A stretch of DNA of 64,000 nucleotides from an uncultured Flavobacteriales bacterium (GTDB taxonomy: Bacteria; Bacteroidota; Bacteroidia; Flavobacteriales; BACL11), in contig CAJWCP010000001.1 of NCBI GenBank assembly GCA_913031595.1, forward strand, positions 4,782-68,781. The letters run 5' to 3'. Shown in pieces: positions 1,136-59,473 of the stretch (within the stretch, counting starts at the first letter, position 1; each line of letters begins with the position of its first letter). Made by a program: the position numbers and the translations under genes. Under the pieces are notes generated by a model. It worked only from the letters and a program-made list of their open reading frames with translations, had not been told where the DNA came from and searched no databases.

Positions 1136-1837
1136 TTACTCAAATGTTAGAGATATCATCCATCCATTTGTTGTTAATCGATTGATAGATTGTGTATATA
1201 CTGTTTTGTCTTTTGAAATTAAATTTAGTATTCCATGTGATAGTTTTATCTGAGGAGAGAATTTAAAGTATTGAAGATAAAAATCAATACCAAAACCAAT
1301 TTCTCCCATTAAATCATTTTCTTTTAATTTGACTATTTCTTGTCCTTCATCATTAATTTTATCTTGAGATGCAATATCTAAACTATACTTAACCCCTGTT
1401 AATATATATGTTCTGAAATTATTATATCGCTCTGATTTGTATTTTATGTATAAAGGAAAGTCAAGTAATGTAGATTCAATTCTTTTAATATTTTTATCTT
1501 CAGAATTGTTAAAACCATACTCTAAATTACGTTCCGCAAATACTAGCATAGGAATAAATCTTAGATCTGTATATTTTCCAAGACGTAGATTTGATACAAT
1601 TCCTAGATTAAATCCTTTTTGGCTTCTTGATTGAAGTGTGGCTAGAGTATCATTATTAATAGTATTGCTATTCTTCTGCATATTAAAGTTTAGTTCATTA
1701 ATACCTAGAGTAAAGCCAAAATGAATTTTCTTAAAATCATAACGAGGAAGGTTTTGAGGCTTCTTGTATCTTTGACCATAAGTTGTTACACTAAACAATA
1801 GTAAAATAAGAATTATATATTTATTTTTCGTTTTCAT
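1136..1837 (-). CDS. porT: PorT/SprT-family outer-membrane beta-barrel protein (T9SS-associated)
   Basis: 233 aa with signal peptide MKTKNKYIILILLLFSVTTYGQ and an alternating beta-strand pattern ending in ISLTFE. It lies immediately downstream of ubiE, which is the conserved position of porT in Bacteroidota as I recall it. Confidence 0.55.
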   Translation of the reverse strand: MKTKNKYIILILLLFSVTTYGQRYKKPQNLPRYDFKKIHFGFTLGINELNFNMQKNSNTINNDTLATLQSRSQKGFNLGIVSNLRLGKYTDLRFIPMLVFAERNLEYGFNNSEDKNIKRIESTLLDFPLYIKYKSERYNNFRTYILTGVKYSLDIASQDKINDEGQEIVKLKENDLMGEIGFGIDFYLQYFKFSPQIKLSHGILNLISKDKTVYTQSINRLTTNGWMISLTFE

Positions 1838-14109: not shown

Positions 14110-15654
14110 ATGATTAAGATACTTTGGGCAGATGATGAGATAGACTTGTTAAAGTCTCATATTATTTATTTAGAAGAAAAAGGTTGTGTATTTACTCCTG
14201 CAAAAAGTGGAGATGAGGCTTTAGATTTATTAGAGAGTAATAGTTTTGACTTAATCTTTCTAGATGAGAATATGCCAGGCATTTCCGGATTAGAAACTCT
14301 TTCTATCATAAAAGAAAGGTATTCAAATATTCCTGTTATTATGATTACTAAGAGTGAAGAAGAAAGTATTATGGAAGAGGCAATTGGCTCAAAGATTGCT
14401 GATTATTTAATTAAACCTTTAAATCCTTCACAAATTTTATTAGCTATTAAAAAGAATATTCAGACTAATAGGTTAGTTGAAGAAAGAACAACAAGAAACT
14501 ATCAGCAAGAATTTAGAAATATTAGTATGAGTTTAGCTAACTCTTTAGATTTAGAAGAATGGTATGAGATGTTTAAAAAGCTTACTTATTGGGAACTAGA
14601 GATAGAGCGTTCTGGAGATAATAGTATTCAGGAAATTCTTAATATGCAAAAATCTGAAGCAAACACACAGTTTTTTAGATTTGTAAAAGATAATTATCAA
14701 GAATGGATGAGGGGGGAGAATGCTCCATTAATGTCACATTCTATTATTAAAGACAGAGTACTTCCCTTACTTTCAGAAGATAAGCCTACTTATTTTATTC
14801 TTATTGATAACTTACGTTATGATCAATGGAAAATTATAGAGCCCTCCTTTTTCAAGGCATTTAATTTTATTCAGGAAGAGCTTTATGTTAGCATATTGCC
14901 TACAGCGACTCAATATTCTCGTAATTCGATTTTTGCAGGATTACTTCCTTCTGAAATTCAAAAGAGGTTTCCTGATTTATGGAAGAATGATGAAGATAAG
15001 GGGGGGAAGAATATGTATGAAGACCAATTCTTAGCAGATAATCTACAGAGGCTAGGGAAGGGGTCGTTTAAACAATCATATACAAAGATTACAAATCTTG
15101 ACTATGGTAGAAAAGTGCTTAATACAATTTCTAACATGCAGGGTAATGCTTTGAATGTCATTGTGTATAATTTTGTAGATATGCTTTCTCATTCAAGAAC
15201 AGATATGAAAGTTATAAAAGAATTAGCAGATGACGATTCTGCTTATCGATCATTGACAGCTTCATGGTTTTCTCATTCTCCTTTAAAGGATATTATTTCT
15301 CAAATAGCTAAACAAGATGCTAATCTTATTATTACAACAGATCATGGAACTATTAATGTTGCTAGGCCATCTAAAGTTATAGGAGATAAGAATGTTAATA
15401 CTAATTTAAGATATAAGCAGGGTAAAAATTTAAATTATAATAAACAAGATGTATTTGAGATGATCAATCCATTAGATTACTATTTGCCTATGCAAAATGT
15501 TAGCAGTAAATATATCTTTGCTAAAGAGGATATGTATTTTGTTTATCAGAATAATTATAATCAATTTGTTAAATTTTATAAAAATACTTATCAGCATGGG
15601 GGTATTTCAATGGAAGAAATGTTAATACCAATTATTATCTTAGAATCTAAATAA
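14110..15654 (+). CDS. porX: PorX-type response regulator (CheY receiver fused to PglZ/alkaline-phosphatase-like domain)
   Basis: 514 aa. The N-terminal receiver has ILWADDE, FLDENMPG and IKP. The C-terminal PglZ-like domain has DNLRYDQW and TTDHGT. Architecture and length match the T9SS regulator PorX. Confidence 0.75.
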   Translation: MIKILWADDEIDLLKSHIIYLEEKGCVFTPAKSGDEALDLLESNSFDLIFLDENMPGISGLETLSIIKERYSNIPVIMITKSEEESIMEEAIGSKIADYLIKPLNPSQILLAIKKNIQTNRLVEERTTRNYQQEFRNISMSLANSLDLEEWYEMFKKLTYWELEIERSGDNSIQEILNMQKSEANTQFFRFVKDNYQEWMRGENAPLMSHSIIKDRVLPLLSEDKPTYFILIDNLRYDQWKIIEPSFFKAFNFIQEELYVSILPTATQYSRNSIFAGLLPSEIQKRFPDLWKNDEDKGGKNMYEDQFLADNLQRLGKGSFKQSYTKITNLDYGRKVLNTISNMQGNALNVIVYNFVDMLSHSRTDMKVIKELADDDSAYRSLTASWFSHSPLKDIISQIAKQDANLIITTDHGTINVARPSKVIGDKNVNTNLRYKQGKNLNYNKQDVFEMINPLDYYLPMQNVSSKYIFAKEDMYFVYQNNYNQFVKFYKNTYQHGGISMEEMLIPIIILESK

Positions 15655-38285: not shown

Positions 38286-39248
38286 TTATAATTGTTGAAT
38301 TTCAAAAGTAGGATATCCTTTTTCTCCTAGATCATTATAAAAATCTATAAATCGTAATTTATAATAATGTCCTTCACCATCTTGAAGAATATAGTTTCTG
38401 TTTTCAACGATTGAATAGCTGCTTGATTCTAAATCAAATATTTTCCAATTATAACCAATGAAATCTCTTTCTTGATTAAAATCATATTGATTAACCTCAG
38501 TATAATTAATATTCTCAAAAGAATTTATTGTGTCTAAAGCAACACTAAGGGTACTGTTGTTAATTAATATTCCAGTAACTAGGTAAGGTGTTGGAGGGTT
38601 AGGAAAAATATGTAAATATTGAGAAAATAACAGGTCCCAATCAGATATATTAGGTTCAATATTCATTACTTTGTTTTCAGAGAATGAGAAGCAAGTTTTT
38701 TGTTTGTTTACTTGTTTATCAATCCATACAGTAGTATCAAGAGAATTATCTAATGAAGCATATCTAACCATATATCCTGTCTCATTTATAGAATCAATTC
38801 TGAATTTTATATATCCTATTGGATTTCCTGAGATATTATAACCTCTATCTATTATAAAGAAGATATTTTGATTTTGATAATCCCCAATAGCAGTACTATC
38901 TATACTGCCTGAAGGGTTATCCCAATTCCATTGAGGGTTATTTATAGAGAACACTGATTCAAAAGATGAATCTGTAATTCTCCATGCGGCTCCACCTAGA
39001 GATGAGTTAAGAAAAATTCTCCATCCATCTATATTGGATTCAAATCCAATATCCCAACTTGTTTTTAGGTTCTGAGAAACAACCGTATTATCTTTTAGTT
39101 TATAAAATATTTGGTAACGATAATCTTGCTGCATTTCAATCGTAGTGGTAATTAGATCTCCTGTTTGATGTGGTGGTATAGGGATTTCTCCTTTATCACA
39201 AGATGTTATCATAAATATTAATAAAGTATATGTTAGGATTTTCTGCAT
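38286..39248 (-). CDS. HmuY-like lipoprotein (paralog of 41528-42763)
   Basis: 320 aa with lipobox ITSC and two W-D-[IL]-x-F motifs (SWDIGFES, DWDLLFSQY). It aligns along its length with the 411-aa neighbour. Its start overlaps the TBDR stop. The HmuY assignment is from memory of the WD[IL]AF motif. Confidence 0.5.
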   Translation of the reverse strand: MQKILTYTLLIFMITSCDKGEIPIPPHQTGDLITTTIEMQQDYRYQIFYKLKDNTVVSQNLKTSWDIGFESNIDGWRIFLNSSLGGAAWRITDSSFESVFSINNPQWNWDNPSGSIDSTAIGDYQNQNIFFIIDRGYNISGNPIGYIKFRIDSINETGYMVRYASLDNSLDTTVWIDKQVNKQKTCFSFSENKVMNIEPNISDWDLLFSQYLHIFPNPPTPYLVTGILINNSTLSVALDTINSFENINYTEVNQYDFNQERDFIGYNWKIFDLESSSYSIVENRNYILQDGEGHYYKLRFIDFYNDLGEKGYPTFEIQQL

Positions 39249-41440
39249 TATAATATGTATTTAATAGCTGTAAATATACTTCTTCCATATCCAATAGATG
39301 TCCTGTTAGAGGATCCTTGATGTATGCCAGAAGAGACTCCTATTACATTTATATTCTGTACATCTAGTATATTTTTACAGCCCAAAGACAGTTCTATTTT
39401 GTTTTTATATAATTTTTTAGATAATGTCATGTCTAACATGTGATAATCTCCTATTATTATATCTTCTATATTTCCAGATTCATTCATGCTAAATGAAGAT
39501 AATTCGCCAGTGTATTTATAGAACATAGCTAGCTTCATTTTAAAGCGATTTATATTGAGTAAGAGACTAGATTGATATTCTTTTGAGAAATTATATGGTT
39601 TAACATTTTCATCAGTTGATAGCTGATTAAAACGTCCTATGTATGACATTCCTATATTAAATTTAATAATATCTTTTATAAGTTCTAAGTTTCCTCGGCC
39701 TCCTACAGTACGATATTCACCAATATTTATATAGGTATATTCATCTCCATTTTCTGCTAATGTTATAAGGTTATTTATATCATTATAGAAAGTGTATGTA
39801 GAATATTTAAGGATGTAATCTTCTGCTTTTTTCTTCCAAGAGAAAGAGGATTGATAATTATTAGATTTTTCTGCAATTAGATTTTTATTCCCAAGAATAT
39901 TGTGGTTGATATCTACAAATTCAAAATATAATTCTTTTAATGAAGGAGCTCTGAATCCTTTAGAAAATGAGGTTCTAAAATGCCAGTTATTTATCATGTA
40001 TTTTAAATGAAAAGATGGAATTAGAGGTGCTGTGTATTCTGTATTGTATGTCCATCTTACTCCTGCTCTTAATATTAAGTTTTTTATATCCCATTCATTA
40101 TTAGTATATAAGGCATAATCTCCTTGATTCTTCTTTCTATTTTCAATTCTTTTGCCTGAGGCTTCTTCATAATTTATATCATATCCTATTTCTGTATTGA
40201 TATTTTCTATAATTGGGAAAGAGAAACTCGAACGACTCATCCAATTATTAAATAATATTGTGTCTTGGTCAGACGCGTTTACTGTTAGTTGTTCTTCTAA
40301 TGTAGTTAAATCTTTTAGGTATGTATTTTTGATGCGTTTATAATTATTATGCGAAAGCAGGAAATTTAATTTACTTTTCTCAGAAATAATTAAAGACATA
40401 TCGCTTCCTATATTTTTCCTCCAAGTATAATAGTAGTCATCAAATGCAGATTCAAAATAGGGTGTTCTAGGCATTCCTCTATTAGTTATCTTTTCATAAA
40501 ATCCATCTATAAAAGAACGTGTTTTTATTTTCTTACTATTATATCGATATTCTCCTTTTATAAATAGTTGTTCTTTTGGGTTCCACTGTTTAAATCGATT
40601 AGTGTCTGCAATGGTTTGTTGTGGAATAAATTGAAAATCTTCATTTGGAGACCAGCCATCAAAATAATTTCTACCACCAGTAAGTGAGAATTGGTTTTTC
40701 TTAGAGCCTATATTAATTAGTCCATCTATATTATAATGGCCAACGCTCTCATAATAAGTATTGACCTTATATGTATTATTTGTATATTCTTTACTAATTA
40801 AATTAATAGTTCCTGCTAGAGCATCAGTCCCATAGTTTACTGACAAAGGACCTTCAATAATTTCAATTCGCTCAATATTATTTAAATTAATTTGACTAAT
40901 ATCAATATTACCATCTAGACGACCAATGACAGGTGTTCCATCGATCATTATTTTTATATTTTGACCATCCAAACCTTGTATGCTTAGACTACTTCCTAAT
41001 ATATTATCTTGTGATAAGCGAATATTTATTTCTTGTTCTAGAACATCTTGCAGGGATATTGCACTAAGCATGTCTAAATCTTCTCTATTTATAACACGTA
41101 TGTTATGTATAGCATCTTCCATATTTCTGTTAGATATTTGTGCGGTAACAACTACTTGATCTAAGACACGGTTTTTGTCTGTAAGGTAAATGTTGGTGTC
41201 AGTTTGGATTAAGATAGAATCTGTAAAATCGTTATAATTAATATGCTTAATAATTAATCTAAATTTTTTGCTAGATAATTGTTTTGGAATATTAAAAAGG
41301 CCTTTGTTATTTGTTATGAGTGTAAATTCATTGATTTGAATAGTTGCTTCTCTAATAGGTTCTTTTTTTCGATCAATTATAGTGATTTTTTGGCCATGAA
41401 CGACACTTGTGATAAGTAAGAAAAGAATAATAATTCTCAT
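39248..41440 (-). CDS. TonB-dependent receptor
   Basis: 730 aa with signal peptide, a carboxypeptidase-regulatory-like N-domain, plug motif IERIEIIEGPLSVNYGTDALAGTINLISK and a beta-barrel. Confidence 0.85.
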   Translation of the reverse strand: MRIIILFLLITSVVHGQKITIIDRKKEPIREATIQINEFTLITNNKGLFNIPKQLSSKKFRLIIKHINYNDFTDSILIQTDTNIYLTDKNRVLDQVVVTAQISNRNMEDAIHNIRVINREDLDMLSAISLQDVLEQEINIRLSQDNILGSSLSIQGLDGQNIKIMIDGTPVIGRLDGNIDISQINLNNIERIEIIEGPLSVNYGTDALAGTINLISKEYTNNTYKVNTYYESVGHYNIDGLINIGSKKNQFSLTGGRNYFDGWSPNEDFQFIPQQTIADTNRFKQWNPKEQLFIKGEYRYNSKKIKTRSFIDGFYEKITNRGMPRTPYFESAFDDYYYTWRKNIGSDMSLIISEKSKLNFLLSHNNYKRIKNTYLKDLTTLEEQLTVNASDQDTILFNNWMSRSSFSFPIIENINTEIGYDINYEEASGKRIENRKKNQGDYALYTNNEWDIKNLILRAGVRWTYNTEYTAPLIPSFHLKYMINNWHFRTSFSKGFRAPSLKELYFEFVDINHNILGNKNLIAEKSNNYQSSFSWKKKAEDYILKYSTYTFYNDINNLITLAENGDEYTYINIGEYRTVGGRGNLELIKDIIKFNIGMSYIGRFNQLSTDENVKPYNFSKEYQSSLLLNINRFKMKLAMFYKYTGELSSFSMNESGNIEDIIIGDYHMLDMTLSKKLYKNKIELSLGCKNILDVQNINVIGVSSGIHQGSSNRTSIGYGRSIFTAIKYIL

Positions 41441-41468
41441 TTTCTTTATTACAGAATTTATTTTACTG

Positions 41469-41476
41469 CAAAATTA
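41469..41476 (-). promoter_or_regulatory. -7 promoter element TAATTTTG (possible internal promoter for the TBDR)
   Basis: Reverse complement of caaaatta, lying 28 nt upstream of the ATG at 41440. Confidence 0.35.
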
Positions 41477-41527
41477 AAAACTAAGAACGAAATAACACCT
41501 TTTGTAAGGTTAATTTATATGTGTGTA

Positions 41528-42763
41528 TTATTGTATAATTAATTTTTCCTTTTTGCTTCCTCCATCTATTGTTACAGAAACAATATATACGCCTTTATTA
41601 AAAGAATTTAGGTTAATATCGTATGTTTTTAATCCTCTGTCTATTATAGATTTTGATATTTCTCTACCTCTAACATCAAAGATTTTTAATTCTCCTATAT
41701 TTTTTGCATCAACTATAACTTTAGTTTGATTAATAGCTGGGTTAGGATATATGGAGAAAGAGTTTACTTTATTATTATTGTCAATAATTGAAGTAGAATT
41801 AATAAGTTCTGTATTAAAAGAAATATTTCCTGAGCTTGTCCCTTCAAATTCTGTAAAAACTATTCTATAGATATCATTATTCATATCTTTAATAAAATAA
41901 CATAAGTCATTACTAAGCACGTATCCTTGTGAAAAATCATAATATTTCCAGTCATAACCAATGGTGTTAATTTCAGAGCTGAATGGGTGAGCTGAGTAGT
42001 TTGTATATGTTGACGGATTTGCTATTTGTACTGCCTCAGCAACTTCTATATCACTGTTAGAAAGTACGCCTGTAACACTATAAGGTTGTCCTTGTACAGG
42101 TGTAATGTACTTAGTAAAGGTAATATCCCATGCTGTATTTATAGGCTCTCTATCTTCCACGCTATTATTATCTATTGAATAATAAATAAAATTCTTGTCA
42201 GAGTAATTGTTCTTATTAATAGTCTGAGTAATTAAGTTAGATCCATCTAGATTGGCATGTATAAATGTGTAAATCCCATTGGCAGCTAATTCTTTAATCC
42301 ATATTTTTTTCCAATTACCATTTACTGTTTTAATAATAAAAATAGAATCTCCTGTTACATAATGATTAATCATGTTATAGACGCCCCATCCATAATCTGG
42401 ATGTCCTAATTGGTTGGCATCAAAGGCTCCAATTGTCCAGCTTGTGTCACTATTGTATAATGGTTGACTTAAATTACCTATACTACTATTATTAATGTTT
42501 ACCCAAGCAGAAGTGTCTCCTAATTGGTAGGTATAAAGCTCTACGCCTTGCCCACCGTTCACTCTAATAGAGGCATTAAATGCTTCAGCAGTAAAAGCAA
42601 TATCCCAGTTTATGTTACTTGTATTTACTATTTCCCCATTTGAGAGGCTGTAAAAACTTTGGTTAACATATCCAGAGCTTAAAGATACAGAGTTAGGTGT
42701 CTGAGAATTACTTGATAAGTGAAAAAAAAGAGTAATTATTAATGTTAAAGTATTCCTTTTCAT
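41528..42763 (-). CDS. HmuY-like secreted protein with canonical T9SS type-A C-terminal domain
   Basis: 411 aa with a signal peptide and motifs NWDIAFTAE and AWDITFTKY. The C-terminal ~75 aa (SIYPNPA...KIFDVRGREI...GVYIVSVTIDGGSKKEKLIIQ) match the Por secretion tail pattern. Confidence 0.55.
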   Translation of the reverse strand: MKRNTLTLIITLFFHLSSNSQTPNSVSLSSGYVNQSFYSLSNGEIVNTSNINWDIAFTAEAFNASIRVNGGQGVELYTYQLGDTSAWVNINNSSIGNLSQPLYNSDTSWTIGAFDANQLGHPDYGWGVYNMINHYVTGDSIFIIKTVNGNWKKIWIKELAANGIYTFIHANLDGSNLITQTINKNNYSDKNFIYYSIDNNSVEDREPINTAWDITFTKYITPVQGQPYSVTGVLSNSDIEVAEAVQIANPSTYTNYSAHPFSSEINTIGYDWKYYDFSQGYVLSNDLCYFIKDMNNDIYRIVFTEFEGTSSGNISFNTELINSTSIIDNNNKVNSFSIYPNPAINQTKVIVDAKNIGELKIFDVRGREISKSIIDRGLKTYDINLNSFNKGVYIVSVTIDGGSKKEKLIIQ

Positions 42764-42766
42764 TGA

Positions 42767-43813
42767 TTATTTCGATTTTAATATAATTTTCTTTTCTATT
42801 TTACCATTACTATAAATATAAAACAAAGGAGTGTTGTAAAGCTTTTCTTTACATTCTCTACCAAGAACATCTATTATTTTCACTACTTCTGTATTTTCTA
42901 TTATGTTCTCTATTGTCAAAGCATTATCAAGAGTAAAGTTAATGTTTGCAATACTATCACAACCACTTACAGTAATTAACGAACTATCTACATAGTCTCC
43001 AGATGCAGTTAAAGAAATATTATTCCATGTAATAGTAGGGTCTGATGATACAAGAGTGTCATAACTTATTGTATTAATTGTCGCCATATTCCAATAAGGA
43101 TTCATTGGATCATTCGCCATTACTAGTGTTTCAGTAGTTCCTAGCGTTATTCCGAATGTATCATCTAGTAGTGTTACCGTATGAGTTATAAAGTCATAGA
43201 TATATGATTGTTGACATACACCACAGCTATCCATTATTGAGCTTCCATCTACTATACCGTTACAATCTATTGTACAGTTTGCATTCCAGTAAGGATTCAT
43301 TGGATGATCTGGCATTACTAACATTTCAGTAGCTCCCAGTGTTATACCTGCTGTATCATTTAGTAATGTTACAGCGTGCGTTACAAAGTCATAGATATAT
43401 GCTTGTTGGCAATCTCCACAGTCATCAGTTAATGATGTTCCATTTGCGATACCGTTACAATCTAGATTTCCTGTTTGAATAGATGCAATAATTACTCCTT
43501 TCATTCCCATTCCAACGTGAGGTTGACAAACATAATGATATGTTTGATTATTAGTAGTTATCAAATAGTCTGTTGCTCCAAATCCAAAATTAAATCCTCC
43601 GTTTGAAGTGCTACCATTACTTACATAAGTTGACTGATCTACTTCAACAGCATTATGAGTTGCTCCTAATACAAAATGTATTGTGTCTCCTACATAACAG
43701 TTTACTGTGTCTGGAGAAAAAGTCATGCCTACTGTATTTACAGTATAAGAGTTTTGAGAATATGTTATATTGAATAACAATATGCTTAATAATAGTAGTA
43801 TATGTTTCTTCAT
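42767..43813 (-). CDS. Secreted cupredoxin (plastocyanin/azurin-like type-1 copper) protein with two Cys-rich repeats and a short C-terminal tag
   Basis: 348 aa with a signal peptide. The type-1 Cu ligand pattern is H53 (GATHNAVEV) and C96-x2-H99-x4-M104 (YHYVCQPHVGMGMKG). Two ~65-aa repeats follow, then the C-terminus ...IIDVLGRE...PLFYIYSNGKIEKKIILKSK. Confidence 0.7.
   Translation of the reverse strand: MKKHILLLLSILLFNITYSQNSYTVNTVGMTFSPDTVNCYVGDTIHFVLGATHNAVEVDQSTYVSNGSTSNGGFNFGFGATDYLITTNNQTYHYVCQPHVGMGMKGVIIASIQTGNLDCNGIANGTSLTDDCGDCQQAYIYDFVTHAVTLLNDTAGITLGATEMLVMPDHPMNPYWNANCTIDCNGIVDGSSIMDSCGVCQQSYIYDFITHTVTLLDDTFGITLGTTETLVMANDPMNPYWNMATINTISYDTLVSSDPTITWNNISLTASGDYVDSSLITVSGCDSIANINFTLDNALTIENIIENTEVVKIIDVLGRECKEKLYNTPLFYIYSNGKIEKKIILKSK
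43079..43465 (-). repeat. Tandem in-frame duplication (2 x ~195 nt) encoding a ~65-aa Cys-containing module
   Basis: Amino acids 117-181 are LDCNGIANGTSLTDDCGDCQQAYIYDFVTHAVTLLNDTAGITLGATEMLVMPDHPMNPYWNANCT. Amino acids 182-245 are IDCNGIVDGSSIMDSCGVCQQSYIYDFITHTVTLLDDTFGITLGTTETLVMANDPMNPYWNMAT. Confidence 0.85.
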
Positions 43814-43967: not shown

Positions 43968-45707
43968 TTATTCGATAATGATCTTTTTTTCTACTGTTCC
44001 ATCATCATAGATATGAAAGAAGGGCTCATTATTTCTCTCATTGATTTCTTTTCCTAATATATTAATCGTTCTTATAATTTTTTTCTTTGTATTATTAATA
44101 TTATTATAATTAGTATTTACTTCTAAACACACAGCTTCTACTTCAATGTTGTAATAAAAGTAATAATAGCCAGCTTGAGAAGCGCTAGATCCAGTAATGT
44201 TTATTATTTCTCCAATATTATAAGGATAAATAGCTCCTGTGCTATTACGGTAAAGGCCAGAATTATTTGTAGACAACCCTAATTGCATGTCTGTTCCTAT
44301 AGGTACTGTGAAATTTAGTATGACATTTTGTTTTCCTGAAAACACTGTGTGTGTTGTGTCATCTATTACATTGCCATTATTATCTCGAAGTTCAAATGTT
44401 ATAGAGTTTGTATTTTCAGCATATATATCAGCTGATTTAATAATACATGTGTCATTACTATTAAATATTAGATGTTGATCATTATAAAAATATCCACCAG
44501 AGCCTATATTAATATCAGTTGCACCTCCATTAAACAGATTAACATTGGCTAGTGAATTATAATTACTTGCAGATTGGTTTAAACATCCAATAACTGCAGC
44601 TATGCAACTTCCATTATCATGACAAGCTAAACTATCATAATTAATTGCTAAAGGATCAGTACATCCACTAATATAACAGCAGCTTCCATCATCAATAGTT
44701 GCAAGACTAGAGAAATTATAAGCACTAGGATCAGTGCATCCGCAATCGTCACTTAATTTATATTTATATATAGCAATAGGAGAAGTAGGGAAAAAGGAAT
44801 TATTATTTTGCCCTAAAAGAAAATAAGCATCACAACCAATTACAAAACTTCCAGGAGCCCAGATGGCATCTCCAGGGTGAGAAGGTAGTTGATTCCAGGA
44901 ATCATTTGTTGGGTTATATTCCCAGAACTCTCCTTCATCTAGGGGTCCATGATCATCGCCATCTCCACTTAATACATATCCTTTATTATTGTATGAAAAT
45001 TGAGTGCCAGCTACTCTCGCTTCTCCAGGGAAATTAGACATTTGTGTCCAGGAATCATTGTTTGGATTATAGCGATAGAAGTCATTATAAATATATGAAT
45101 TAGCAGAGGGGTTACTTCCAGGTCCAAATACACTTCCATGACCAAATCCTACATATGCATAGTCACCAATTCCAAAATAGAATGGATGGTGTCTATTATT
45201 GCCAATTAGATCAGTTTTTTGTGTCCATGTGTTATTTGTTACATTATACTCCCACCAGTCACCTAAGTTTCCATTGTCATTACTTCCACATCCCATATAG
45301 ATATTATCGTTTACTACAATCATTGCAGGATGATTTCTTCCATCTCCAGGGAAATTTGCTTTTTGTGTCCAGCTGTCATTTATCATGTCATATTCCCACC
45401 AATCTGTTGGATATATTCCATTTGAAGTTGATCCAAATCCTAAATACGCTTTATCTCCTATCGATACTCCATAGGCATAGCCTCTTCCCGTAGAAGGGAA
45501 ATCTTGTAATTGTGTCCAAGTATCGTTTATTTTATCGTATTTATATGCATCAGTAAGATAACTTCCAGATATTACAAATCCATGCTCATTATTTGAAAAT
45601 GTGATTGGATGATGTCTTCCATCAGCAGGAAAATTTGATAATTGTTGCCAGTTCTGGCTAATACCTATTAAAGGTAAAAAAAACAATATAAGCAGTATTT
45701 TTTTCAT
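43968..45707 (-). CDS. Secreted six-bladed Kelch-type beta-propeller protein with Cys-knot repeats, unknown beta-rich domain and short C-terminal tag
   Basis: 579 aa with a signal peptide. Six repeats of the form W[TN]Q...FP..R....... (e.g. DTWTQLQDFPSTGRGYAYG, DSWTQKANFPGDGRNHPAM). It also has three GCxDxxAxNY...DDGSC motifs and the C-terminus INILGKE...PFFHIYDDGTVEKKIIIE. Confidence 0.75.
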   Translation of the reverse strand: MKKILLILFFLPLIGISQNWQQLSNFPADGRHHPITFSNNEHGFVISGSYLTDAYKYDKINDTWTQLQDFPSTGRGYAYGVSIGDKAYLGFGSTSNGIYPTDWWEYDMINDSWTQKANFPGDGRNHPAMIVVNDNIYMGCGSNDNGNLGDWWEYNVTNNTWTQKTDLIGNNRHHPFYFGIGDYAYVGFGHGSVFGPGSNPSANSYIYNDFYRYNPNNDSWTQMSNFPGEARVAGTQFSYNNKGYVLSGDGDDHGPLDEGEFWEYNPTNDSWNQLPSHPGDAIWAPGSFVIGCDAYFLLGQNNNSFFPTSPIAIYKYKLSDDCGCTDPSAYNFSSLATIDDGSCCYISGCTDPLAINYDSLACHDNGSCIAAVIGCLNQSASNYNSLANVNLFNGGATDINIGSGGYFYNDQHLIFNSNDTCIIKSADIYAENTNSITFELRDNNGNVIDDTTHTVFSGKQNVILNFTVPIGTDMQLGLSTNNSGLYRNSTGAIYPYNIGEIINITGSSASQAGYYYFYYNIEVEAVCLEVNTNYNNINNTKKKIIRTINILGKEINERNNEPFFHIYDDGTVEKKIIIE

Positions 45708-48130: not shown

Positions 48131-50179
48131 TTAATATAATAAAATCTCTTCTATTTTTTTACTAACTTTTTCTGCATTTGGCAGCATAGTTTTTTCTAAT
48201 ACAGAGTTTAAAGGAATTGCAGGTAAGTTTTCAGATCCTATTACAAAAACTGGACTATCTAATTGCTCAAAACAGTTTTCTTGAATATCTCCAGCTAGTG
48301 CTTGAGCGAAGGAACTGTGATAAGATTCTTCTGTTATAATTAAACATTTTCCATGTTTATTAACTGTCTTGTATATTAACTCTTTGTCTAATGGGTATAG
48401 AGTTCTTAGATCAATGATCTCTACTTTTCCTTGATGATCCTTTGCAGCATTAATAGCCCAATGTACTCCCATACCGTATGTAATAATACATATAGTATTT
48501 TCATAACCTTCACTTTGTATTATGCTTTTTCCTTTTCCAAAAGGAATAATATAATCTTCTGAAGGTTCTATTGTTTTTGCATTTTCAGTTCCTTTTATTT
48601 TACTCCAATATAATCCTTTATGCTCTAGCATAACAACAGGGTTTGGATCATAATATGCAGATTTCATTAATCCTTTTAGATCAGCTCCATTTGACGGATA
48701 TGCTATTTTAATACCTTTAATTTGTGCTAAAACTGATTCTATAGATGATGAATGATAAGGACCTCCACTACCATATGCTCCAATAGGAACTCTTATGATA
48801 CAACTTACAGGCCACTTTCCATTTGATAAATAATTTGAACGACTTACTTCTGTAAAAAGTTGATTAAGTCCTGGCCATATATAATCTGCAAATTGTACTT
48901 CTACAATTGGTTTTAGACCTACTGCTGACATACCTACTGTACTCCCAATAATAAATGCTTCTTGTATAGGAGTATTAAAAACTCTATTATCTCCAAAAGT
49001 TTGTGCTAATGTTGCGGTTTCACGAAATACACCTCCTAAACGTTTTCCAACATCTTGACCATATAATAAACATTCAGGGTGTTTTTTCATTAATTCTTTG
49101 ATTGCAAACAGTGCTGAATCTACCATGACAGTAGCTTCTTTATTTTTTGGAGATCTCTCTCCTTTTTCTTCTGTGATATCAGTAGGAGAGAAGTCATGTA
49201 AGAATAAATCTTCAGGAGATGGCTCTTCTGCTTTACAAGCTTTTGTGTAATGTGAAATGACGTTCTCTTTAGCTTCTTTTTCTATATCTAATAATTCTTT
49301 TTTTGTAAAATTATTTTTTAATAATTCTTTTTTTAGTTTCGGGAAAGGATCTTTTCTTTTAGCTTCTTTTAAGTCATCTCGATACCACTCCATCCTTACT
49401 CCAGAGGTATGATGGTTTAATAAGGGAACTTTCGCATGTATTAAAATTGGAATTCTTTTTGCTCTAATTTCTTTGAATGCTTTACTAATAGTATTATATG
49501 ATGTAGTAAAATCTGTTCCATCAATAGAGTATGTTTTTAATCCGAATCCTTTTGCGTAATGATTTGCATCTACAGCTCTTGTTTCAGATGCATGTGCTGA
49601 TATGTCCCATTCATTATCTTGTACTAAATATAGGATAGGTAGTTGTTTTAAAGCAGCCATTTGAAAAGCTTCGGCAACCTCTCCTTCAGTAATTGCTGCA
49701 TCTCCAAAAGAACAAACCACTACAGGTTCTTCTCCTTTTTTAGGTGTTGTTATTTTTTCACTTTCTTTATATTTGATTCCCATTGCAACTCCTGTTGTAG
49801 GTATTGCTTGCATTCCTGTTGCAGATGATTGATGTGGTATTTTTGGGAATCCTTTTCTTTTTAAAGAAGGGTGTGAGTAGTAAGTTCTACCTCCAGAAAA
49901 TGGATCATCTTTTTTACACATGAGTTGCAGCATTAATTCATAGGGAGTCATTCCAATTCCAAGTAAAAGAGAGTCGTCTCTATAATAAGGAGCAACCCAG
50001 TCATTTTCAGTTAATTGAAGGCCTAAAGCTAATTGGATTGCTTCGTGTCCTTTTGATGTTGCATGTACATATTTTGAAGTTACGGCTGCATTTTCTTCAT
50101 ATATATCACTCATTTCCCGTGCAGTACACATTAATGAATAAGCTTTTTTTAAGATCTTTTTTGACAGTTTACTACTCAT
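48131..50179 (-). CDS. Fused alpha/beta E1 component of a 2-oxoacid dehydrogenase (ThDP-dependent)
   Basis: 682 aa. The N-terminal half is E1-alpha-like (ThDP motif GDAAITEGE...N) and the C-terminal half is transketolase-like E1-beta. There is a TAATG overlap with the upstream enoyl-CoA hydratase gene. Confidence 0.8.
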   Translation of the reverse strand: MSSKLSKKILKKAYSLMCTAREMSDIYEENAAVTSKYVHATSKGHEAIQLALGLQLTENDWVAPYYRDDSLLLGIGMTPYELMLQLMCKKDDPFSGGRTYYSHPSLKRKGFPKIPHQSSATGMQAIPTTGVAMGIKYKESEKITTPKKGEEPVVVCSFGDAAITEGEVAEAFQMAALKQLPILYLVQDNEWDISAHASETRAVDANHYAKGFGLKTYSIDGTDFTTSYNTISKAFKEIRAKRIPILIHAKVPLLNHHTSGVRMEWYRDDLKEAKRKDPFPKLKKELLKNNFTKKELLDIEKEAKENVISHYTKACKAEEPSPEDLFLHDFSPTDITEEKGERSPKNKEATVMVDSALFAIKELMKKHPECLLYGQDVGKRLGGVFRETATLAQTFGDNRVFNTPIQEAFIIGSTVGMSAVGLKPIVEVQFADYIWPGLNQLFTEVSRSNYLSNGKWPVSCIIRVPIGAYGSGGPYHSSSIESVLAQIKGIKIAYPSNGADLKGLMKSAYYDPNPVVMLEHKGLYWSKIKGTENAKTIEPSEDYIIPFGKGKSIIQSEGYENTICIITYGMGVHWAINAAKDHQGKVEIIDLRTLYPLDKELIYKTVNKHGKCLIITEESYHSSFAQALAGDIQENCFEQLDSPVFVIGSENLPAIPLNSVLEKTMLPNAEKVSKKIEEILLY

Positions 50180-50934
50180 TATTTGTTTTTAAACTTTGCA
50201 ATAGCATTTTTTGTAAATTCCGAGAGTACTAATTGCCCACTGTTTTTAGCTCTTTCCATTAAGAGTTGATCCCAGTTCTCAGTTCCTTTCCAAAGGATTT
50301 TCTTTAATTCTTGCATTGCTTCAGGATTTGAATTAGAAAGAGTGATAGCTAGTTTATTAACTTCTTGATCCATTTCTTCACTAGATTCAAATATTTCTAT
50401 ATATAGTCCTTTTTCTTTAGCCCAGTTTGCGTCAAACCATTTTGTAGCATTTATGGTCATAGCAGAAAAGGAAGAAACTCCTACTTTTCTCCTTACTGCT
50501 GGACCAACTACAAACGGTCCAATACCGATTGCTAATTCAGATAACTTGACTGAAGAAAATTTCGTAGCAAAGCAATAATCAGTAGCAGAAAGCATACCTA
50601 CACCACCTCCAACTGCTTTACCTTGTACACGTCCAATAATAAATTTAGGACATTTACGAGCTGCATTAATTACATTAGCAAAACCTAAAAAGAAATTTTT
50701 ACCATTTTCTGCGTCTTTAATAGAGGTTAATTCTTCGAAGGAGGCTCCTGCACAAAATGCTCTTTCTCCACCACTTTTTAATATAATTACTTTAATGTTT
50801 TCATCTTCTCCTGCTTTTGTAATTGTATTAGCTAATTGTGCTAAGATATTTGCTGGTAGAGAGTTAGATTGTGGATGAAAGAACTCAATTGTTCCAATAC
50901 CATTTTGTATATCTAATTTTACATATTCTTCCAT
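50179..50934 (-). CDS. Enoyl-CoA hydratase/isomerase (crotonase) family protein; PaaF candidate
   Basis: 251 aa with crotonase oxyanion region FCAGASFEE and GKAVGGGVGM. Confidence 0.75.
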   Translation of the reverse strand: MEEYVKLDIQNGIGTIEFFHPQSNSLPANILAQLANTITKAGEDENIKVIILKSGGERAFCAGASFEELTSIKDAENGKNFFLGFANVINAARKCPKFIIGRVQGKAVGGGVGMLSATDYCFATKFSSVKLSELAIGIGPFVVGPAVRRKVGVSSFSAMTINATKWFDANWAKEKGLYIEIFESSEEMDQEVNKLAITLSNSNPEAMQELKKILWKGTENWDQLLMERAKNSGQLVLSEFTKNAIAKFKNK

Positions 50935-50935
50935 A

Positions 50936-52564
50936 TTATTCTAGTATTATTTTTTTCTCTACTCTTCCATCTGTATAGATATAGAATAGAGGTGTATTTT
51001 TTTTAGGAGAGGTTTCTTTTCCAAGTACATTGGTAATTCTATACTCTTTACTATTAGAGTTGATTTCGTTTATATTTGTTGAGTTAATCATGGTTAAATC
51101 TAAGGTAATTATACTATCACAACCTTCTGAATTTGTTGTTGTAAAAGTATAAATCCCACTTTGTGTATATTCTATTCCATTCCAAGTATAATTATTGTAT
51201 CCAGTATCTGTAACAAGTGATGAACTTGAGTGTTTAATCCATAAGTCTAATATTATTGTGCTGTCACAACCACATTGATTAGGAAATGTATTTATATAAG
51301 TTCCAGATGTTGTGTAATTAGTTCCATTCCAAGAGTAAGAATCACATGTGTCTAATGTTATTGCTATAGTTGGTGTTGGATAACAGCAACTTCCATCATC
51401 AACATTAGCTGTAGAATCATAATTACATGCTAATAAGTCCATGCAACCTACGTTTTGAGATGCAAAGAACCAGTCAAATTTTTGTGCTCTATATAAGTTT
51501 CCTCCATCATCATATTCTAATTGAAAAACAATCTGGCCATTTGTATCTACTTCTGTTACAATGGATCCTATGTTTAACCATTGTAGATTGCCAAAGTCAA
51601 TTAGTGTATTACCATTTGGTAATCTCTGTACTCCGCTAATTGATGGAGTATATAAGGAATCAGGATGAACAAATTCCCATACTTTTTCTGCAGTCATTAA
51701 ATTAGTGTCAAGTTCATATTCTACAGCTCTTGAAAGTTTTACTCCAATATATGTATCACTATGATTACCATTATCATATAATAAATATCTATTATCACCT
51801 AAGCTTCTAATAGAGTGTTGATGTGTGAAAGGGTAGTCATTTATAAAGGTAAATTCATTTTGAGAACCTCCCCATCTCCAGATAACTTCTCCTGTTGTTC
51901 TATGTATTTTTGTGATTTCATCTAAACCTCTTGAAGAAATAATAAAGTGTCCATCAAAATCAATGTCTATTGCATTTGCATGAATAAAATTTAATTGCGA
52001 TCCTGTCCAAGGAGACAGATAAGTATTGTCTGTTACATGAAAATGATCCCAACTTTTCCATTCAAAGAGCAGGTTATGATTAGAATCTAATTCTTGAATA
52101 ATTAACCCTTCAACTATAGCATTGGGGTCTCCACCAGCAACTACTGTATCCATAGCATAAGGTTGTTCATCATATGCGATAAGCACATAATTTCCATTTG
52201 GTAATGCTAAAAAATCATGATTATCTGCAATATATCCATTTTGGCAGTAAACAGAATCAATTTCATTTTGTAAAGAATCCATAATAAACCATCCTTTACT
52301 AGATCTGTCAAAATAGGATAATTTATTATTATAATTAACCTTAAAGTCCCATCCTTTCATTCCCCAATTTTGAGAAAATATTTCTGTTCCTGTTGAGTCT
52401 ATTATTTTAACAGGTCTTGGAGCAGTTCCTCCTCTTTGAAAGAAAAGATTTGCATCCCAAGCTTGATTTGTATTAACCGTTATTGTATAGTTAGGTTGTT
52501 GAGGTTGTGTAAAAGAAAGTGTTGGGATAATTATAAGAAATAGTAATATTTTTTTTATCATCAT
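50936..52564 (-). CDS. Secreted arylsulfotransferase (ASST)-like beta-propeller protein with Cys modules and short C-terminal tag
   Basis: 542 aa with a signal peptide. ASST-family-like motifs are NHDFLALPNGN, FIHANAIDIDFDGHFIISSRGLDEITKI...GEVIWRWGG and HQHSIRSLGDNRYLLYDNGN. It then has GCMDLLACNYDSTANVDDGSCCY, two WNG...SG.Y...GCDS modules and the C-terminus TNVLGKE...PLFYIYTDGRVEKKIILE. Confidence 0.6.
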   Translation of the reverse strand: MMIKKILLFLIIIPTLSFTQPQQPNYTITVNTNQAWDANLFFQRGGTAPRPVKIIDSTGTEIFSQNWGMKGWDFKVNYNNKLSYFDRSSKGWFIMDSLQNEIDSVYCQNGYIADNHDFLALPNGNYVLIAYDEQPYAMDTVVAGGDPNAIVEGLIIQELDSNHNLLFEWKSWDHFHVTDNTYLSPWTGSQLNFIHANAIDIDFDGHFIISSRGLDEITKIHRTTGEVIWRWGGSQNEFTFINDYPFTHQHSIRSLGDNRYLLYDNGNHSDTYIGVKLSRAVEYELDTNLMTAEKVWEFVHPDSLYTPSISGVQRLPNGNTLIDFGNLQWLNIGSIVTEVDTNGQIVFQLEYDDGGNLYRAQKFDWFFASQNVGCMDLLACNYDSTANVDDGSCCYPTPTIAITLDTCDSYSWNGTNYTTSGTYINTFPNQCGCDSTIILDLWIKHSSSSLVTDTGYNNYTWNGIEYTQSGIYTFTTTNSEGCDSIITLDLTMINSTNINEINSNSKEYRITNVLGKETSPKKNTPLFYIYTDGRVEKKIILE

Positions 52565-52572
52565 TTTAAAAT

Positions 52573-54621: not shown

Positions 54622-54644
54622 TTGTATAACTCTTCTTTGTTAAT

Positions 54645-56979: not shown

Positions 56980-56983
56980 TTTC

Positions 56984-57091
56984 TTACCACATTTCGGTTT
57001 TTATCTTCTTATTATTATTGCATTTTTTACTAGTAGTGCAAGCACCTAATAAGAATACTAAACATACTAATAGTATCATTGTTTTTTTCAT
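56984..57091 (-). CDS. Putative 35-aa mini-lipoprotein (below the ORF-track cutoff)
   Basis: MKKTMILLVCLVFLLGACTTSKKCNNNKKIKTEMW with lipobox LLGAC. It fills the paaI-paaJ gap, leaving 5-nt and 4-nt spacers. Confidence 0.3.
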   Translation of the reverse strand: MKKTMILLVCLVFLLGACTTSKKCNNNKKIKTEMW

Positions 57092-57096
57092 TTTTT

Positions 57097-59431: not shown

Positions 59432-59473
59432 TTTTTTCAGATTATTAGAGTGCTAAAATACGAAAAATAAATC

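What the first reader, a model, noticed from the sequence alone, without database searches (positions are those of the whole stretch)
42770..42883. Compact C-terminal tag of about 36 aa shared by three modular secreted proteins, a possible minimal T9SS sorting signal
Three proteins with signal peptides and unrelated N-terminal domains end in the same short module.
- Cupredoxin, 42770-42883: VKIIDVLGRECKEKLYNTPLFYIYSNGKIEKKIILKSK.
- Kelch propeller, 43971-44081: KIIRTINILGKEINERNNEPFFHIYDDGTVEKKIIIE.
- ASST-like propeller, 50939-51046: EYRITNVLGKETSPKKNTPLFYIYTDGRVEKKIILE.

Each module is preceded by an Asn-rich linker. The consensus is roughly [IV]x[IV]LG[KR]E-x5,6-N-x-P-[LF]-F-x-IY-x2-G-x-[IV]-EKKII.

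The neighbouring gene 41528-42763 carries a full-length canonical type-A domain of about 75 aa (YPNP...KIFDVRGREI...GVYIVSVTIDGGSKKEKLIIQ). The short tag looks like that domain with its N-terminal strands and the middle LxxGxY segment removed.

The three DNA sequences are clearly diverged. That argues for selection on the peptide rather than a recent copy event. porT and porX orthologues elsewhere in the window show that the organism has a T9SS.
Basis: partly seen in the sequence, partly recalled or inferred. Interest (0 to 1): 0.6.

Follow-up and report, generated by a model that had tools for sequence, protein, structure and literature searches.

The report
Forty-residue type IX secretion tag
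Three secreted proteins in this marine Flavobacteriales genome end in a conserved tail of about 40 residues that is very probably a cut-down type IX secretion signal; thousands of ocean bacterial protein families carry it, yet the standard annotation models miss it completely.

Summary
Three minus-strand genes (cupredoxin, Kelch, ASST-like) have Sec signal peptides and end in the same ~40-aa module. No Pfam or NCBIfam model detects it, even at E<=10.

A tail profile finds 3,401 protein clusters (50% identity). In the listed matches it ends at or within a few residues of the C-terminus. Carriers are uncultured marine Flavobacteriales.

The module behaves as an alternative to the canonical type-A CTD:
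- Both occur in the same genomes.
- No protein has both.
- In one orthologous family (64-100% identical passengers), 55 members carry the tag and 51 a type-A CTD, with at least 5 switches.

Profile-profile and junction alignments make the tag collinear with a type-A CTD lacking strands 1-2 and the middle strands. AlphaFold2 predicts a disordered linker followed by three beta-strands. An invariant Lys lies six residues from the C-terminus. PorX and PorT are in the window.

The concept has precedent: 40-55 aa three-stranded "short CTDs" were described in Prevotella intermedia (2025), reported as the only such species. This is a second, much larger, unannotated case. T9SS dependence is inferred, not shown.

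The parts
42770..42895 (-). Short C-terminal tag of the cupredoxin protein (NTEVVKIIDVLGRECKEKLYNTPLFYIYSNGKIEKKIILKSK, 42 aa)
   Evidence: Tag profile score 66.7 bits. Extent of the core from the conservation profile.
43971..44087 (-). Short C-terminal tag of the Kelch-propeller protein (KKKIIRTINILGKEINERNNEPFFHIYDDGTVEKKIIIE, 39 aa)
   Evidence: Tag profile score 64.4 bits.
50939..51055 (-). Short C-terminal tag of the ASST-like protein (NSKEYRITNVLGKETSPKKNTPLFYIYTDGRVEKKIILE, 39 aa)
   Evidence: Tag profile score 71.7 bits. AlphaFold2 predicts three strands at residues 507-511, 526-530 and 535-538, after a disordered linker at 495-504.
42767..43813 (-). Host gene 1: secreted cupredoxin (348 aa) with signal peptide MKKHILLLLSILLFNITYSQ
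   Evidence: PF00127, E 7.8e-10.
43968..45707 (-). Host gene 2: secreted Kelch/NanM-like beta-propeller (579 aa) with signal peptide MKKILLILFFLPLIGISQ
   Evidence: PF24996 and Kelch families.
50936..52564 (-). Host gene 3: secreted ASST-like beta-propeller (542 aa) with signal peptide MMIKKILLFLIIIPTLSFTQ
   Evidence: PF05935, E 1.9e-29. 119 of its 120 closest homologues also end in the tag.
41531..41752 (-). Comparator: canonical full-length type-A CTD (residues 338-411) of the adjacent 411-aa protein (gene 41528-42763)
   Evidence: TIGR04183 1-72/72, E 6.7e-13; PF18962 1-75/75.
14110..15654 (+). PorX, the T9SS response regulator; shows the organism has a T9SS
   Evidence: NF052313, 798 bits, full length.
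1136..1837 (-). PorT/SprT, a T9SS outer-membrane component
   Evidence: NF052311, 229 bits, full length.

Best explanation
The module is a shortened, three-stranded derivative of the T9SS type-A C-terminal sorting domain. It serves uncultured marine Flavobacteriales as an alternative to the 75-aa domain.

Proposed mechanism:
1. The N-terminal Sec signal peptide takes the protein to the periplasm. The signal peptides are shown; the transport is inferred.
2. After a disordered Asn/Ser/Thr-rich linker, the last ~40 residues fold into a mini-sheet. Strand 1 is (K)LIKIVD, followed by the L-G-R-E loop, which is equivalent to type-A motif B. An N-x-P turn follows. Strand 2 is LFYIY, equivalent to motif D. 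After a DDG turn, strand 3 is VEKKIIIE, equivalent to motif E, with an invariant Lys six residues from the C-terminus. The fold is predicted; the collinearity is shown by alignment.
3. This surface is presented to the PorV loops inside the SprA translocon, as for type-A CTDs, and the protein is exported (inferred by analogy).
4. A PorU-type sortase cuts in the linker, possibly at T|S-I-x-E, and the tag is discarded (inferred).

The tag has repeatedly replaced, or been replaced by, full-length type-A CTDs on orthologous passengers. The two are therefore functionally interchangeable.
For: Position and distribution:
- 144 of 151 copies in 80 genome loci plus the window lie within 5 aa of the stop codon.
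- Nearly every one of the top 150 of 3,401 cluster representatives ends at, or within a residue of, the protein's last residue.
- Carriers have Sec signal peptides: 95 of 134 by a crude test, and 52 of 80 in a second set.
- Passenger domains are extracytoplasmic or surface types: LRR, SprB repeats, PKD, cupredoxin, reprolysin, a glycoside hydrolase, propellers and adhesin modules.

Relation to type-A CTDs:
- Type-A CTD genes occur in 24 of the 81 tag-bearing sources (80 loci plus the window). No ORF has both signals, even at E<=10 with filters off.
- Signal swapping: L053 (tag) and L031 (type A) are 72% identical over passenger residues 5-372. L047 and L030 are 70% identical.
- In the redoxin-domain family, 55 members have the tag, 51 have type A and none has both. 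Median lengths are 424 and 456 aa. At least 5 switches are needed on the passenger tree. Most distant homologues carry type A.
- hhalign of tag against type A scores 21.5 (P 2.7e-4), against a maximum of 15.5 in 40 column shuffles. The global alignment deletes about 16 residues between the LG strand and the FYIY strand.
- Junction alignments show the same collinearity.

Structure and context:
- AlphaFold2 on the isolated tail gives pLDDT 81-90.
- In the full-length ASST protein the linker 495-504 is disordered, followed by three strands with pLDDT 81-88.
- G45 and K49 of the tail are invariant in 123 tails. Lauber 2024 reports a near-invariant, functionally important Lys near the CTD C-terminus that contacts PorV.
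- The same [ST][IV]x[EDQN] motif precedes tags (37%) and type-A CTDs (56%), against 0-7% in control windows.
- There is no recurrent neighbour and no PorP/SprF-like partner. That is the type-A pattern, not the type-B pattern.
- PorX and PorT are in the window.
- Precedent: P. intermedia short CTDs of 40-55 aa have three strands equivalent to strands 3, 6 and 7, with cleavage and glycosylation shown by mass spectrometry.
Against: - No experimental evidence exists for this lineage. All carriers are MAGs or SAGs.
- The curated type-A models do not recognise the tag. An iterated type-A profile built from the same genomes never recruits it.
- The profile-profile probability is only 41% (15% in global mode). 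Homology to type A is therefore plausible, not proven.
- The G of the type-A GxY motif is absent from the tag.
- Foldseek against the PDB found nothing significant, best E 1.9.
- PorV, PorU and SprA were not seen in the window, and the whole genomes could not be inspected.
- The switch count rests on a quick neighbour-joining tree.
- The linker motif is partly a compositional effect.
Confidence: 0.8

Rival explanations
1. The tag is a T9SS signal but a functionally distinct class. It would be read by a specialised carrier (a PorV paralogue or PorP-like protein) or would set a different fate after export, for example release into seawater instead of covalent attachment to the cell surface.
For: The tag and type-A families are sharply separated, with no intermediates. 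The tag sequence is unusually uniform across unrelated passengers, as if it were tuned to one receptor. CTD identity can dictate final destination in F. johnsoniae. Both signals are kept side by side in the same genomes and even in the same operon.
Against: No recurrent neighbouring gene was found. The most frequent neighbours are housekeeping enzymes. Orthologous passengers switch freely between the two signals, at least 5 times in one family, which argues that the fate is equivalent. The same linker motif precedes both signals. In P. intermedia, short and long CTDs were both cleaved and glycosylated, and both were modelled on PorV in the same way.
Confidence: 0.13
2. The tail is a surface-retention or ligand-binding module, for example one that binds LPS, a polysaccharide or an outer-membrane partner, and export happens by some other route.
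For: It is a small, independently folded beta unit after a flexible linker. Many carriers are adhesin-like, with LRR, SprB or PKD domains.
Against: Binding modules are not confined to the last residues of a protein. Here nearly all listed top matches end at the C-terminus, and 144 of 151 locus copies end within 5 aa of the stop codon. It occurs once per protein. It replaces a known secretion signal in orthologues, and the tagged versions would then have no outer-membrane export signal at all.
Confidence: 0.04
3. It is a sorting signal for a different, non-T9SS pathway, such as an unknown sortase-like or strand-insertion system.
For: No curated T9SS model recognises it. The carriers belong to a restricted, uncultured lineage.
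Against: It is collinear with type-A motifs B, D and E and keeps the near-C-terminal Lys. It swaps with type-A CTDs. No conserved partner gene was found nearby. It has no transmembrane helix or basic tail of the kind seen in PEP-CTERM or LPXTG-type signals (sequence). It ends in an acidic residue, not the aromatic residue typical of BAM substrates.
Confidence: 0.03

Closest known systems
Short type-A CTDs of Prevotella intermedia (Open Biol 2025, PMC11969387; first noted by Veith et al. 2013, as cited there)
   Same: Both measure about 40-55 aa from the predicted cleavage site. Both are predicted to form a single three-stranded sheet equivalent to strands 3, 6 and 7 of the long CTD, keeping motifs B, D and E. 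Both favour a basic residue after the motif-B Gly and an extra basic residue in motif E. Both co-exist with long CTDs in the same genome. In both, the cleavage region lies in a coiled linker with a conserved Ile.
   Different: The order and habitat differ: marine Flavobacteriales against an oral Bacteroidales species. Most P. intermedia short CTDs were found by HMMs built from ordinary CTDs, whereas the marine tag is invisible to TIGR04183 and PF18962 and to a type-A profile built from the same genomes. The marine tag lacks the Gly of GxY and is far more uniform in sequence (PLFYIYDDGTVEKKIIIE). It is spread over 3,401 protein clusters. There is no experimental evidence for it.
Canonical T9SS type-A CTD (TIGR04183 / PF18962)
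   Same: Both sit at the extreme C-terminus of Sec-exported proteins in T9SS-bearing Bacteroidota. Both have the I-x-D-x-L-G-[RK] strand, a hydrophobic-aromatic strand and a K-rich last strand with a conserved Lys. Both follow a similar linker. Neither has a cognate neighbouring gene. The two are interchangeable on orthologous passengers.
   Different: The tag is about 40 aa, not about 75 aa. It lacks strands 1-2 (the YPNP region) and the middle strands, so it cannot form the seven-stranded beta-sandwich. It fails the family HMMs.
T9SS type-B CTD (TIGR04131) with PorP/SprF-like shuttles
   Same: It is also a C-terminal T9SS signal found in Flavobacteriia.
   Different: Type B is 150-235 aa, is unrelated in sequence, and is usually encoded next to a cognate PorP/SprF gene. 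The tag gives no TIGR04131 hit and has no such neighbour.
Minimal C-terminal 22 residues of P. gingivalis Hbp35, sufficient for secretion of GFP (as cited in PMC11969387)
   Same: It shows that the last two strands (motifs D and E) carry the essential information. Those strands correspond to the best-conserved part of the marine tag, PLFYIYDDGTVEKKIIIE.
   Different: That is an engineered truncation of a longer natural CTD, not a natural, conserved, stand-alone module.

Membership tests
T9SS type-A CTD (TIGR04183 / PF18962) | Match to the family HMM above the curated cut-off (23 bits for TIGR04183, 27 bits for PF18962) | tested here: not met
   No hit at E<=1 on the full proteins or at E<=10 on the isolated tails. 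Only 2 of 80 carriers hit, with best E 0.0046. An in-house type-A profile gives only domain E 14-17 on the first strand.
T9SS type-A CTD (TIGR04183 / PF18962) | Seven-stranded beta-sandwich of about 70-100 aa | tested here: not met
   The conserved module is 39-42 aa. AlphaFold2 predicts three strands after a disordered linker.
T9SS type-A CTD (TIGR04183 / PF18962) | Extreme C-terminal position on proteins with an N-terminal Sec signal peptide | tested here: met
   144 of 151 copies lie within 5 aa of the stop codon. Nearly all of the top 150 representatives end at the C-terminus. Signal peptides are present.
T9SS type-A CTD (TIGR04183 / PF18962) | Collinear motifs B, D and E with the conserved Lys near the C-terminus | tested here: inconclusive
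   hhalign gives P 2.7e-4, probability 41%, and beats all 40 shuffles. Junction alignments are collinear. The Lys is invariant in 123 tails. However, the Gly of GxY is missing.
T9SS type-A CTD (TIGR04183 / PF18962) | The organism encodes a T9SS | tested here: met
   PorX scores 798 bits and PorT/SprT 229 bits in the window. Type-A cargo is present in the window and in 24 of the 81 tag-bearing sources (80 loci plus the window). Core genes SprA, PorV and PorU were not seen in the 64 kb.
T9SS type-A CTD (TIGR04183 / PF18962) | PorV/SprA-dependent export and removal of the CTD by PorU | not testable with these tools
   This needs genetics or proteomics. No cultured carrier was found among the listed loci.
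Short type-A CTD (as defined in P. intermedia, PMC11969387) | 40-55 aa from cleavage site to C-terminus | tested here: inconclusive
   The core is 39-42 aa, and the linker motif lies about 6-8 aa upstream, giving about 45 aa. The cleavage site itself is only inferred.
Short type-A CTD (as defined in P. intermedia, PMC11969387) | Single three-stranded sheet equivalent to strands 3, 6 and 7 of the long CTD | tested here: met
   AlphaFold2 predicts three strands. The hhalign global alignment and the junction alignments map them to the LG strand and the last two strands of type A. These are predictions, not solved structures.
Short type-A CTD (as defined in P. intermedia, PMC11969387) | Co-existence with long CTDs in one genome | tested here: met
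   The window holds 1 type-A protein and 3 tagged proteins. 24 of the 81 tag-bearing sources (80 loci plus the window) carry both.
Short type-A CTD (as defined in P. intermedia, PMC11969387) | Sequence relatedness to the P. intermedia short CTDs | not tested
   The sequences are not held: the figures are absent and no supplement is available.
T9SS type-B CTD (TIGR04131) | HMM match and a cognate PorP/SprF-like gene adjacent | tested here: not met
   No NCBIfam hit. The ten most frequent neighbour families are housekeeping genes or lack any Pfam hit, and none is PorP/SprF-like.

The most novel reading that the evidence does not exclude
The tag would be a mobile signal class of its own, not merely a short CTD. 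It would have repeatedly displaced the 75-aa domain in low-GC ocean Flavobacteriales. It would either be matched to a co-adapted carrier or destination (for example release into seawater rather than cell-surface attachment), or it would exist because a discarded signal half as long saves resources in nutrient-poor water. In either case it would be the smallest natural T9SS signal, usable as a portable secretion tag of about 45 residues.
Probability: 0.25. Interest if true: 0.7.

Novelty: new variant of a known kind. Interest (0 to 1): 0.55.

Why it matters
Secreted enzymes and adhesins of marine Flavobacteriales drive much of the breakdown of algal organic matter. T9SS cargo in genomes and metagenomes is normally counted with TIGR04183, TIGR04131 or PF18962.

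This tag marks at least 3,401 protein clusters that those models miss. The few carriers that have names are called 'hypothetical protein', or are named only after their passenger domain. T9SS secretomes of these abundant, uncultured bacteria are therefore substantially under-counted. In this window three of the four T9SS-type cargo proteins would be missed.

Mechanistically, a natural family in which three strands are enough, and which swaps freely with the full domain, narrows down what the PorV/SprA receptor must recognise. It extends a phenomenon reported for a single oral species to a large environmental lineage. A conserved natural signal of about 40-45 aa is also an attractive minimal secretion tag for engineering Bacteroidota.

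Tried and rejected
- Plus-strand translations of the stated coordinates are meaningless; the genes are on the minus strand.
- The exact look-up of the cupredoxin protein found nothing on record.
- I looked for intermediates between the tag and type A, with both profiles at E<=10 and filters off. There were none.
- I looked for a dedicated partner gene. No untagged family adjoins more than 5 tagged families, and the top ten are housekeeping genes or have no Pfam hit.
- I looked for PorV or PorU in the window and found only metabolic genes.
- I tried to obtain the P. intermedia short-CTD sequences, but no supplement is held.
- Among the 120 closest homologues of the window's ASST protein, 119 carry the tag and none carries type A. 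That family shows stability rather than swapping at this depth.
- One coordinate slip was made and corrected.
- Rejected explanations: chance or low complexity (E-values down to 1e-20, 3,401 clusters); recent duplication (synonymous sites are near saturation); a BAM or OMP signature (the tag ends in Glu, not an aromatic residue); a PEP-CTERM or LPXTG-type signal (no transmembrane helix).
Full report
OBSERVATION. They are the last 38, 37 and 36 residues of three minus-strand ORFs: 42767-43813 (348 aa), 43968-45707 (579 aa) and 50936-52564 (542 aa). Plus-strand translation of the given coordinates is meaningless.

The passengers are unrelated: a plastocyanin-type cupredoxin (PF00127), a Kelch/NanM-like propeller and an ASST-like propeller (PF05935). 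Each starts with a Sec-type signal peptide followed by Gln. A six-frame pattern scan finds exactly three copies in the 64 kb, each running into a stop codon.

The adjacent 411-aa protein (41528-42763) has a full-length canonical type-A CTD: TIGR04183 1-72/72 at E 6.7e-13, and PF18962 1-75/75. PorX (14110-15654, 798 bits) and PorT/SprT (1136-1837, 229 bits) are present. The window is 30% G+C.

The three copies are old and under purifying selection. In each pair, 7-14 of the 16-21 identical residues use different codons. pS is 0.56-0.93 and pN/pS is 0.31-0.51.

NOT AN ORDINARY CTD. Neither the full proteins at E<=1 nor the isolated tails at E<=10 match TIGR04183, PF18962, TIGR04131 or any other Pfam or NCBIfam model in the tail region. 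I built a type-A profile iteratively from the neighbour's CTD on 80 related genome loci. It collects 36 type-A proteins and none of 145 tag-bearing ORFs. With all HMMER filters off and E<=10, no ORF is hit at its C-terminus by both profiles. In the window the type-A profile gives only faint partial matches (domain E 14-17, model positions about 10-40) to the first strand of two tags.

A LARGE FAMILY WITH THE DISTRIBUTION OF A SORTING SIGNAL. A profile of the three tails retrieved 214 short metagenomic proteins, best E 2e-20. None has a Pfam domain, and the few that carry names are called 'hypothetical protein', mostly from Flavobacteriales MAGs.

A 35-sequence profile was then searched without a word index against 1.84 billion cluster representatives. 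It finds 3,401 proteins at E<=1e-3 and 1,407 at E<=1e-10. In nearly every one of the 150 listed, the match ends at, or within a residue of, the last residue, on proteins of 42-703 aa.

A scan of one genome per species (GTDB) gives 380 confirmed copies. The 80 best loci come from 43 assemblies, almost all uncultured marine Flavobacteriales MAGs or SAGs. A few contigs sit in bins labelled Thalassomonas, Pelagibacterales, Neomarinimicrobiota or Saprospiraceae. They have the same 27-34% G+C and are probably mis-binned.

In those loci plus the window, 144 of 151 copies lie within 5 residues of the stop codon. The 134 complete hosts are 109-931 aa long (median 367). Most start with an obvious signal peptide, often the stereotyped MKKLLLILLCLPMIGFGQ.

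Passenger domains in 80 full-length representatives are those of secreted or surface proteins. They include LRR (12), SprB repeats (12), PKD (4) and cupredoxin (3), plus reprolysin-type peptidases, a glycoside hydrolase, propellers, and YadA-head and Lcl adhesin modules. TIGR04183 touches only 2 of the 80, below threshold.

EXTENT OF THE MODULE. Position-specific information rises abruptly about 10 residues before the LG motif. The consensus is N-K-K-L-I-K-I-V-D-V-L-G-R-E-x4-K-N-T-P-L-F-Y-I-Y-D-D-G-T-V-E-K-K-I-I-I-E-COOH. Upstream there is only a weak T-S-I-E-E signal, and beyond about 25 residues nothing. The conserved unit is therefore 39-42 aa, and no hidden N-terminal half of a CTD exists.

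RELATIONSHIP TO TYPE A. hhalign of 143 tails against 36 type-A CTDs from the same genomes gives a weak but non-random match: score 21.5, P 2.7e-4, probability 41%. The maximum over 40 column-shuffled controls is 15.5.

The local match pairs LiKIvDiLGRet with the i-I-n-lG--V strand of type A. In global mode a gap of about 16 residues removes the next strand, and pLFYIYdDGtVEKKII falls on GiYfv-i------i-kk-I.

The same picture appears residue by residue in near-orthologous pairs. One type-A CTD reads VLVYPNPSDGNLYVESDFIENSMVQITDLLGNNIKTIAVNKGENKIQIKNLPPNFYFIQINKRVCEKIVVR. The corresponding tag reads ERKLKMIVDVLGRDSK---HLPNVPQ--FYIYDDGTVEKRIVIE.

The tag is therefore collinear with a type-A CTD that has lost strands 1-2 and the middle strands. 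It keeps motif B, the N-x-P turn, motif D and motif E. In 123 aligned tails only a turn Gly and the first Lys of EKK are invariant. Lauber et al. 2024 single out a near-invariant, functionally important Lys near the CTD C-terminus that contacts PorV.

FUNCTIONAL INTERCHANGEABILITY. This is the strongest evidence. I clustered all genes of the 80 loci plus the window with the tags masked. The 137 tagged genes fall into 62 passenger families. Six families mix tagged members with members that carry a type-A CTD.

In these families, homology runs through the passenger and stops at the signal. L053 (tag) and L031 (type A) are 72% identical over residues 5-372. L047 and L030 are 70% identical. L079 and L077 are 45% identical.

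I searched the large protein database with the L053 passenger. Among the 120 best homologues, 55 end in the tag and 51 in a type-A CTD (PF18962), and none has both. Full-length medians are 424 and 456 aa. At least five switches are needed on a neighbour-joining passenger tree. The distant homologues (41-45% identity) mostly carry type A, so type A is probably ancestral in this family.

NCBI names the type-A versions 'T9SS type A sorting domain-containing protein'. It names the tagged versions 'hypothetical protein' or 'redoxin domain-containing protein'.

By contrast, 119 of the 120 closest homologues of the window's ASST protein carry the tag, so the tag is stably inherited within close families.

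NO DEDICATED PARTNER. Type-B CTDs need cognate PorP/SprF-like shuttles that are usually encoded next door, whereas all type-A CTDs share PorV (PMC12618676). No untagged family adjoins more than five different tagged families. Of the ten most frequent neighbour families, seven are housekeeping genes (SDR, aldehyde dehydrogenase, MsrB, GNAT, MeaB, alanine dehydrogenase/transhydrogenase-like, MFS). The other three have no Pfam hit.

Tagged genes often cluster with each other (37 of 137) and sometimes with type-A genes (13 of 137). A short [ST][IV]x[EDQN] motif lies within 16 residues upstream of 37% of tags and 56% of type-A CTDs, against 0-7% in control windows. Linker composition is the same for both. 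This fits a shared processing site, but it is partly a compositional effect.

WHAT IS KNOWN. Short CTDs are not a new idea. In Prevotella intermedia, 48 of 80 predicted cargo proteins have 'short' CTDs of 40-55 aa. They are predicted to form one three-stranded sheet equivalent to strands 3, 6 and 7 of the long CTD, with motifs B, D and E retained. Cleavage and C-terminal glycosylation were shown by mass spectrometry, and docking to PorV was modelled to be the same as for long CTDs.

[quoted passage not shown] In the searchable literature 'short CTD' together with T9SS occurs only in two P. intermedia papers, and I found nothing on marine Flavobacteriia.

The marine tag shares that architecture, including a basic residue after the motif-B Gly and a doubled basic residue in motif E. 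It differs in four ways. It lies in another order. It is undetectable by standard CTD models. It lacks the Gly of GxY. It is far more uniform and much more widespread.

MECHANISM. Shown here: the extreme C-terminal position, the signal peptides, the extracytoplasmic passengers, co-existence and exchange with type-A CTDs, collinearity with motifs B, D and E, the invariant Lys, the lack of a cognate neighbour, and T9SS genes in the window. Predicted: the three-strand fold after a disordered linker. Inferred by analogy: binding to the PorV loops inside SprA, export, and cleavage by PorU in the linker near T|S-I-x-E.

I put 0.8 on 'shortened type-A-derived T9SS signal'. I put about 0.13 on a distinct class with its own carrier or fate, and a few per cent on non-secretion or non-T9SS roles.

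VERDICT. It is a new variant of a known kind: a second, far larger and currently unannotated instance of the short-CTD phenomenon. Its practical consequence is for reading marine Bacteroidota secretomes. Its mechanistic interest lies in defining the minimal T9SS signal. Experimental proof is lacking.

Noticed in passing
window 38286-43813 (-): This looks like an uptake operon: an HmuY-like lipoprotein (PF14064), a TonB-dependent receptor, a 411-aa protein with HmuY-like sequence features and a type-A CTD, then the tagged cupredoxin. Both signal types are used side by side in one gene cluster.
   Followed up: partly
window 44600-44740 (Kelch protein, around aa 324) and 51320-51390 (ASST protein, around aa 394); also P0198, P0208, P0216: A Cys-rich module, C-x-D-x2-A-x-NY-x2-4-A-x1-3-DDGSC-x-Y, is shared by unrelated secreted proteins and has no Pfam hit. 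It occurs in 5 of 129 tagged ORFs and 6 of 927 other ORFs in the loci.
   Followed up: partly
window 50936-51400 (ASST C-terminal region) and 42900-43100 (cupredoxin); P0082, P0100, P0198, P0208: Repeats of the form Y-x-WNG-x2-Y-x2-SG-x-Y...GCDS-x3-L-x-L-T sit immediately upstream of the linker in several tagged proteins. AlphaFold2 predicts beta-rich units here (ASST residues 400-492). No Pfam family matches.
   Followed up: no
P0121-P0258 and the loci: Many tagged proteins share a nearly identical signal peptide, MKKLLLILLCLPMIGFGQ, with Gln after the likely cleavage site. This is consistent with the Bacteroidota 'Q-rule' of N-terminal pyroglutamate (from my own knowledge, not tested here).
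   Followed up: no
P0205 (281 aa, metagenomic): This protein has a hydroxymethylbilane synthase (HemC) N-terminus joined to the C-terminal part of an esterase-like tagged family plus the tag. It is almost certainly a chimeric assembly or gene call, not a secreted HemC.
   Followed up: partly
L011, L035, L043, L059: Tag-bearing contigs sit in bins labelled Thalassomonas, Pelagibacterales, Saprospiraceae and Neomarinimicrobiota. Their G+C of 27-34% matches the Flavobacteriales loci, which suggests mis-binning or mislabelling.
   Followed up: partly
window 50179-60659: The ASST-like tagged gene lies within a phenylacetyl-CoA and fatty-acid catabolic gene neighbourhood. It includes a likely enoyl-CoA hydratase and a likely PaaZ-like fusion (both judged from sequence only, not scanned), a 3-oxoadipyl-CoA thiolase, a 3-hydroxyacyl-CoA dehydrogenase and PaaC. 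It is unclear whether this is functional linkage or coincidence.
   Followed up: no
L045 (166-aa ORF), L049, L061, L066; P0455: Divergent tag variants exist, such as ...LYGQEISKTPHGFVLFRYNDGSLEKKYILK and ...IIIYEDGTIRKELILDNN. The family is therefore broader than the PLFYIYDDGTVEKK consensus, and the count of 3,401 clusters is probably an underestimate.
   Followed up: partly
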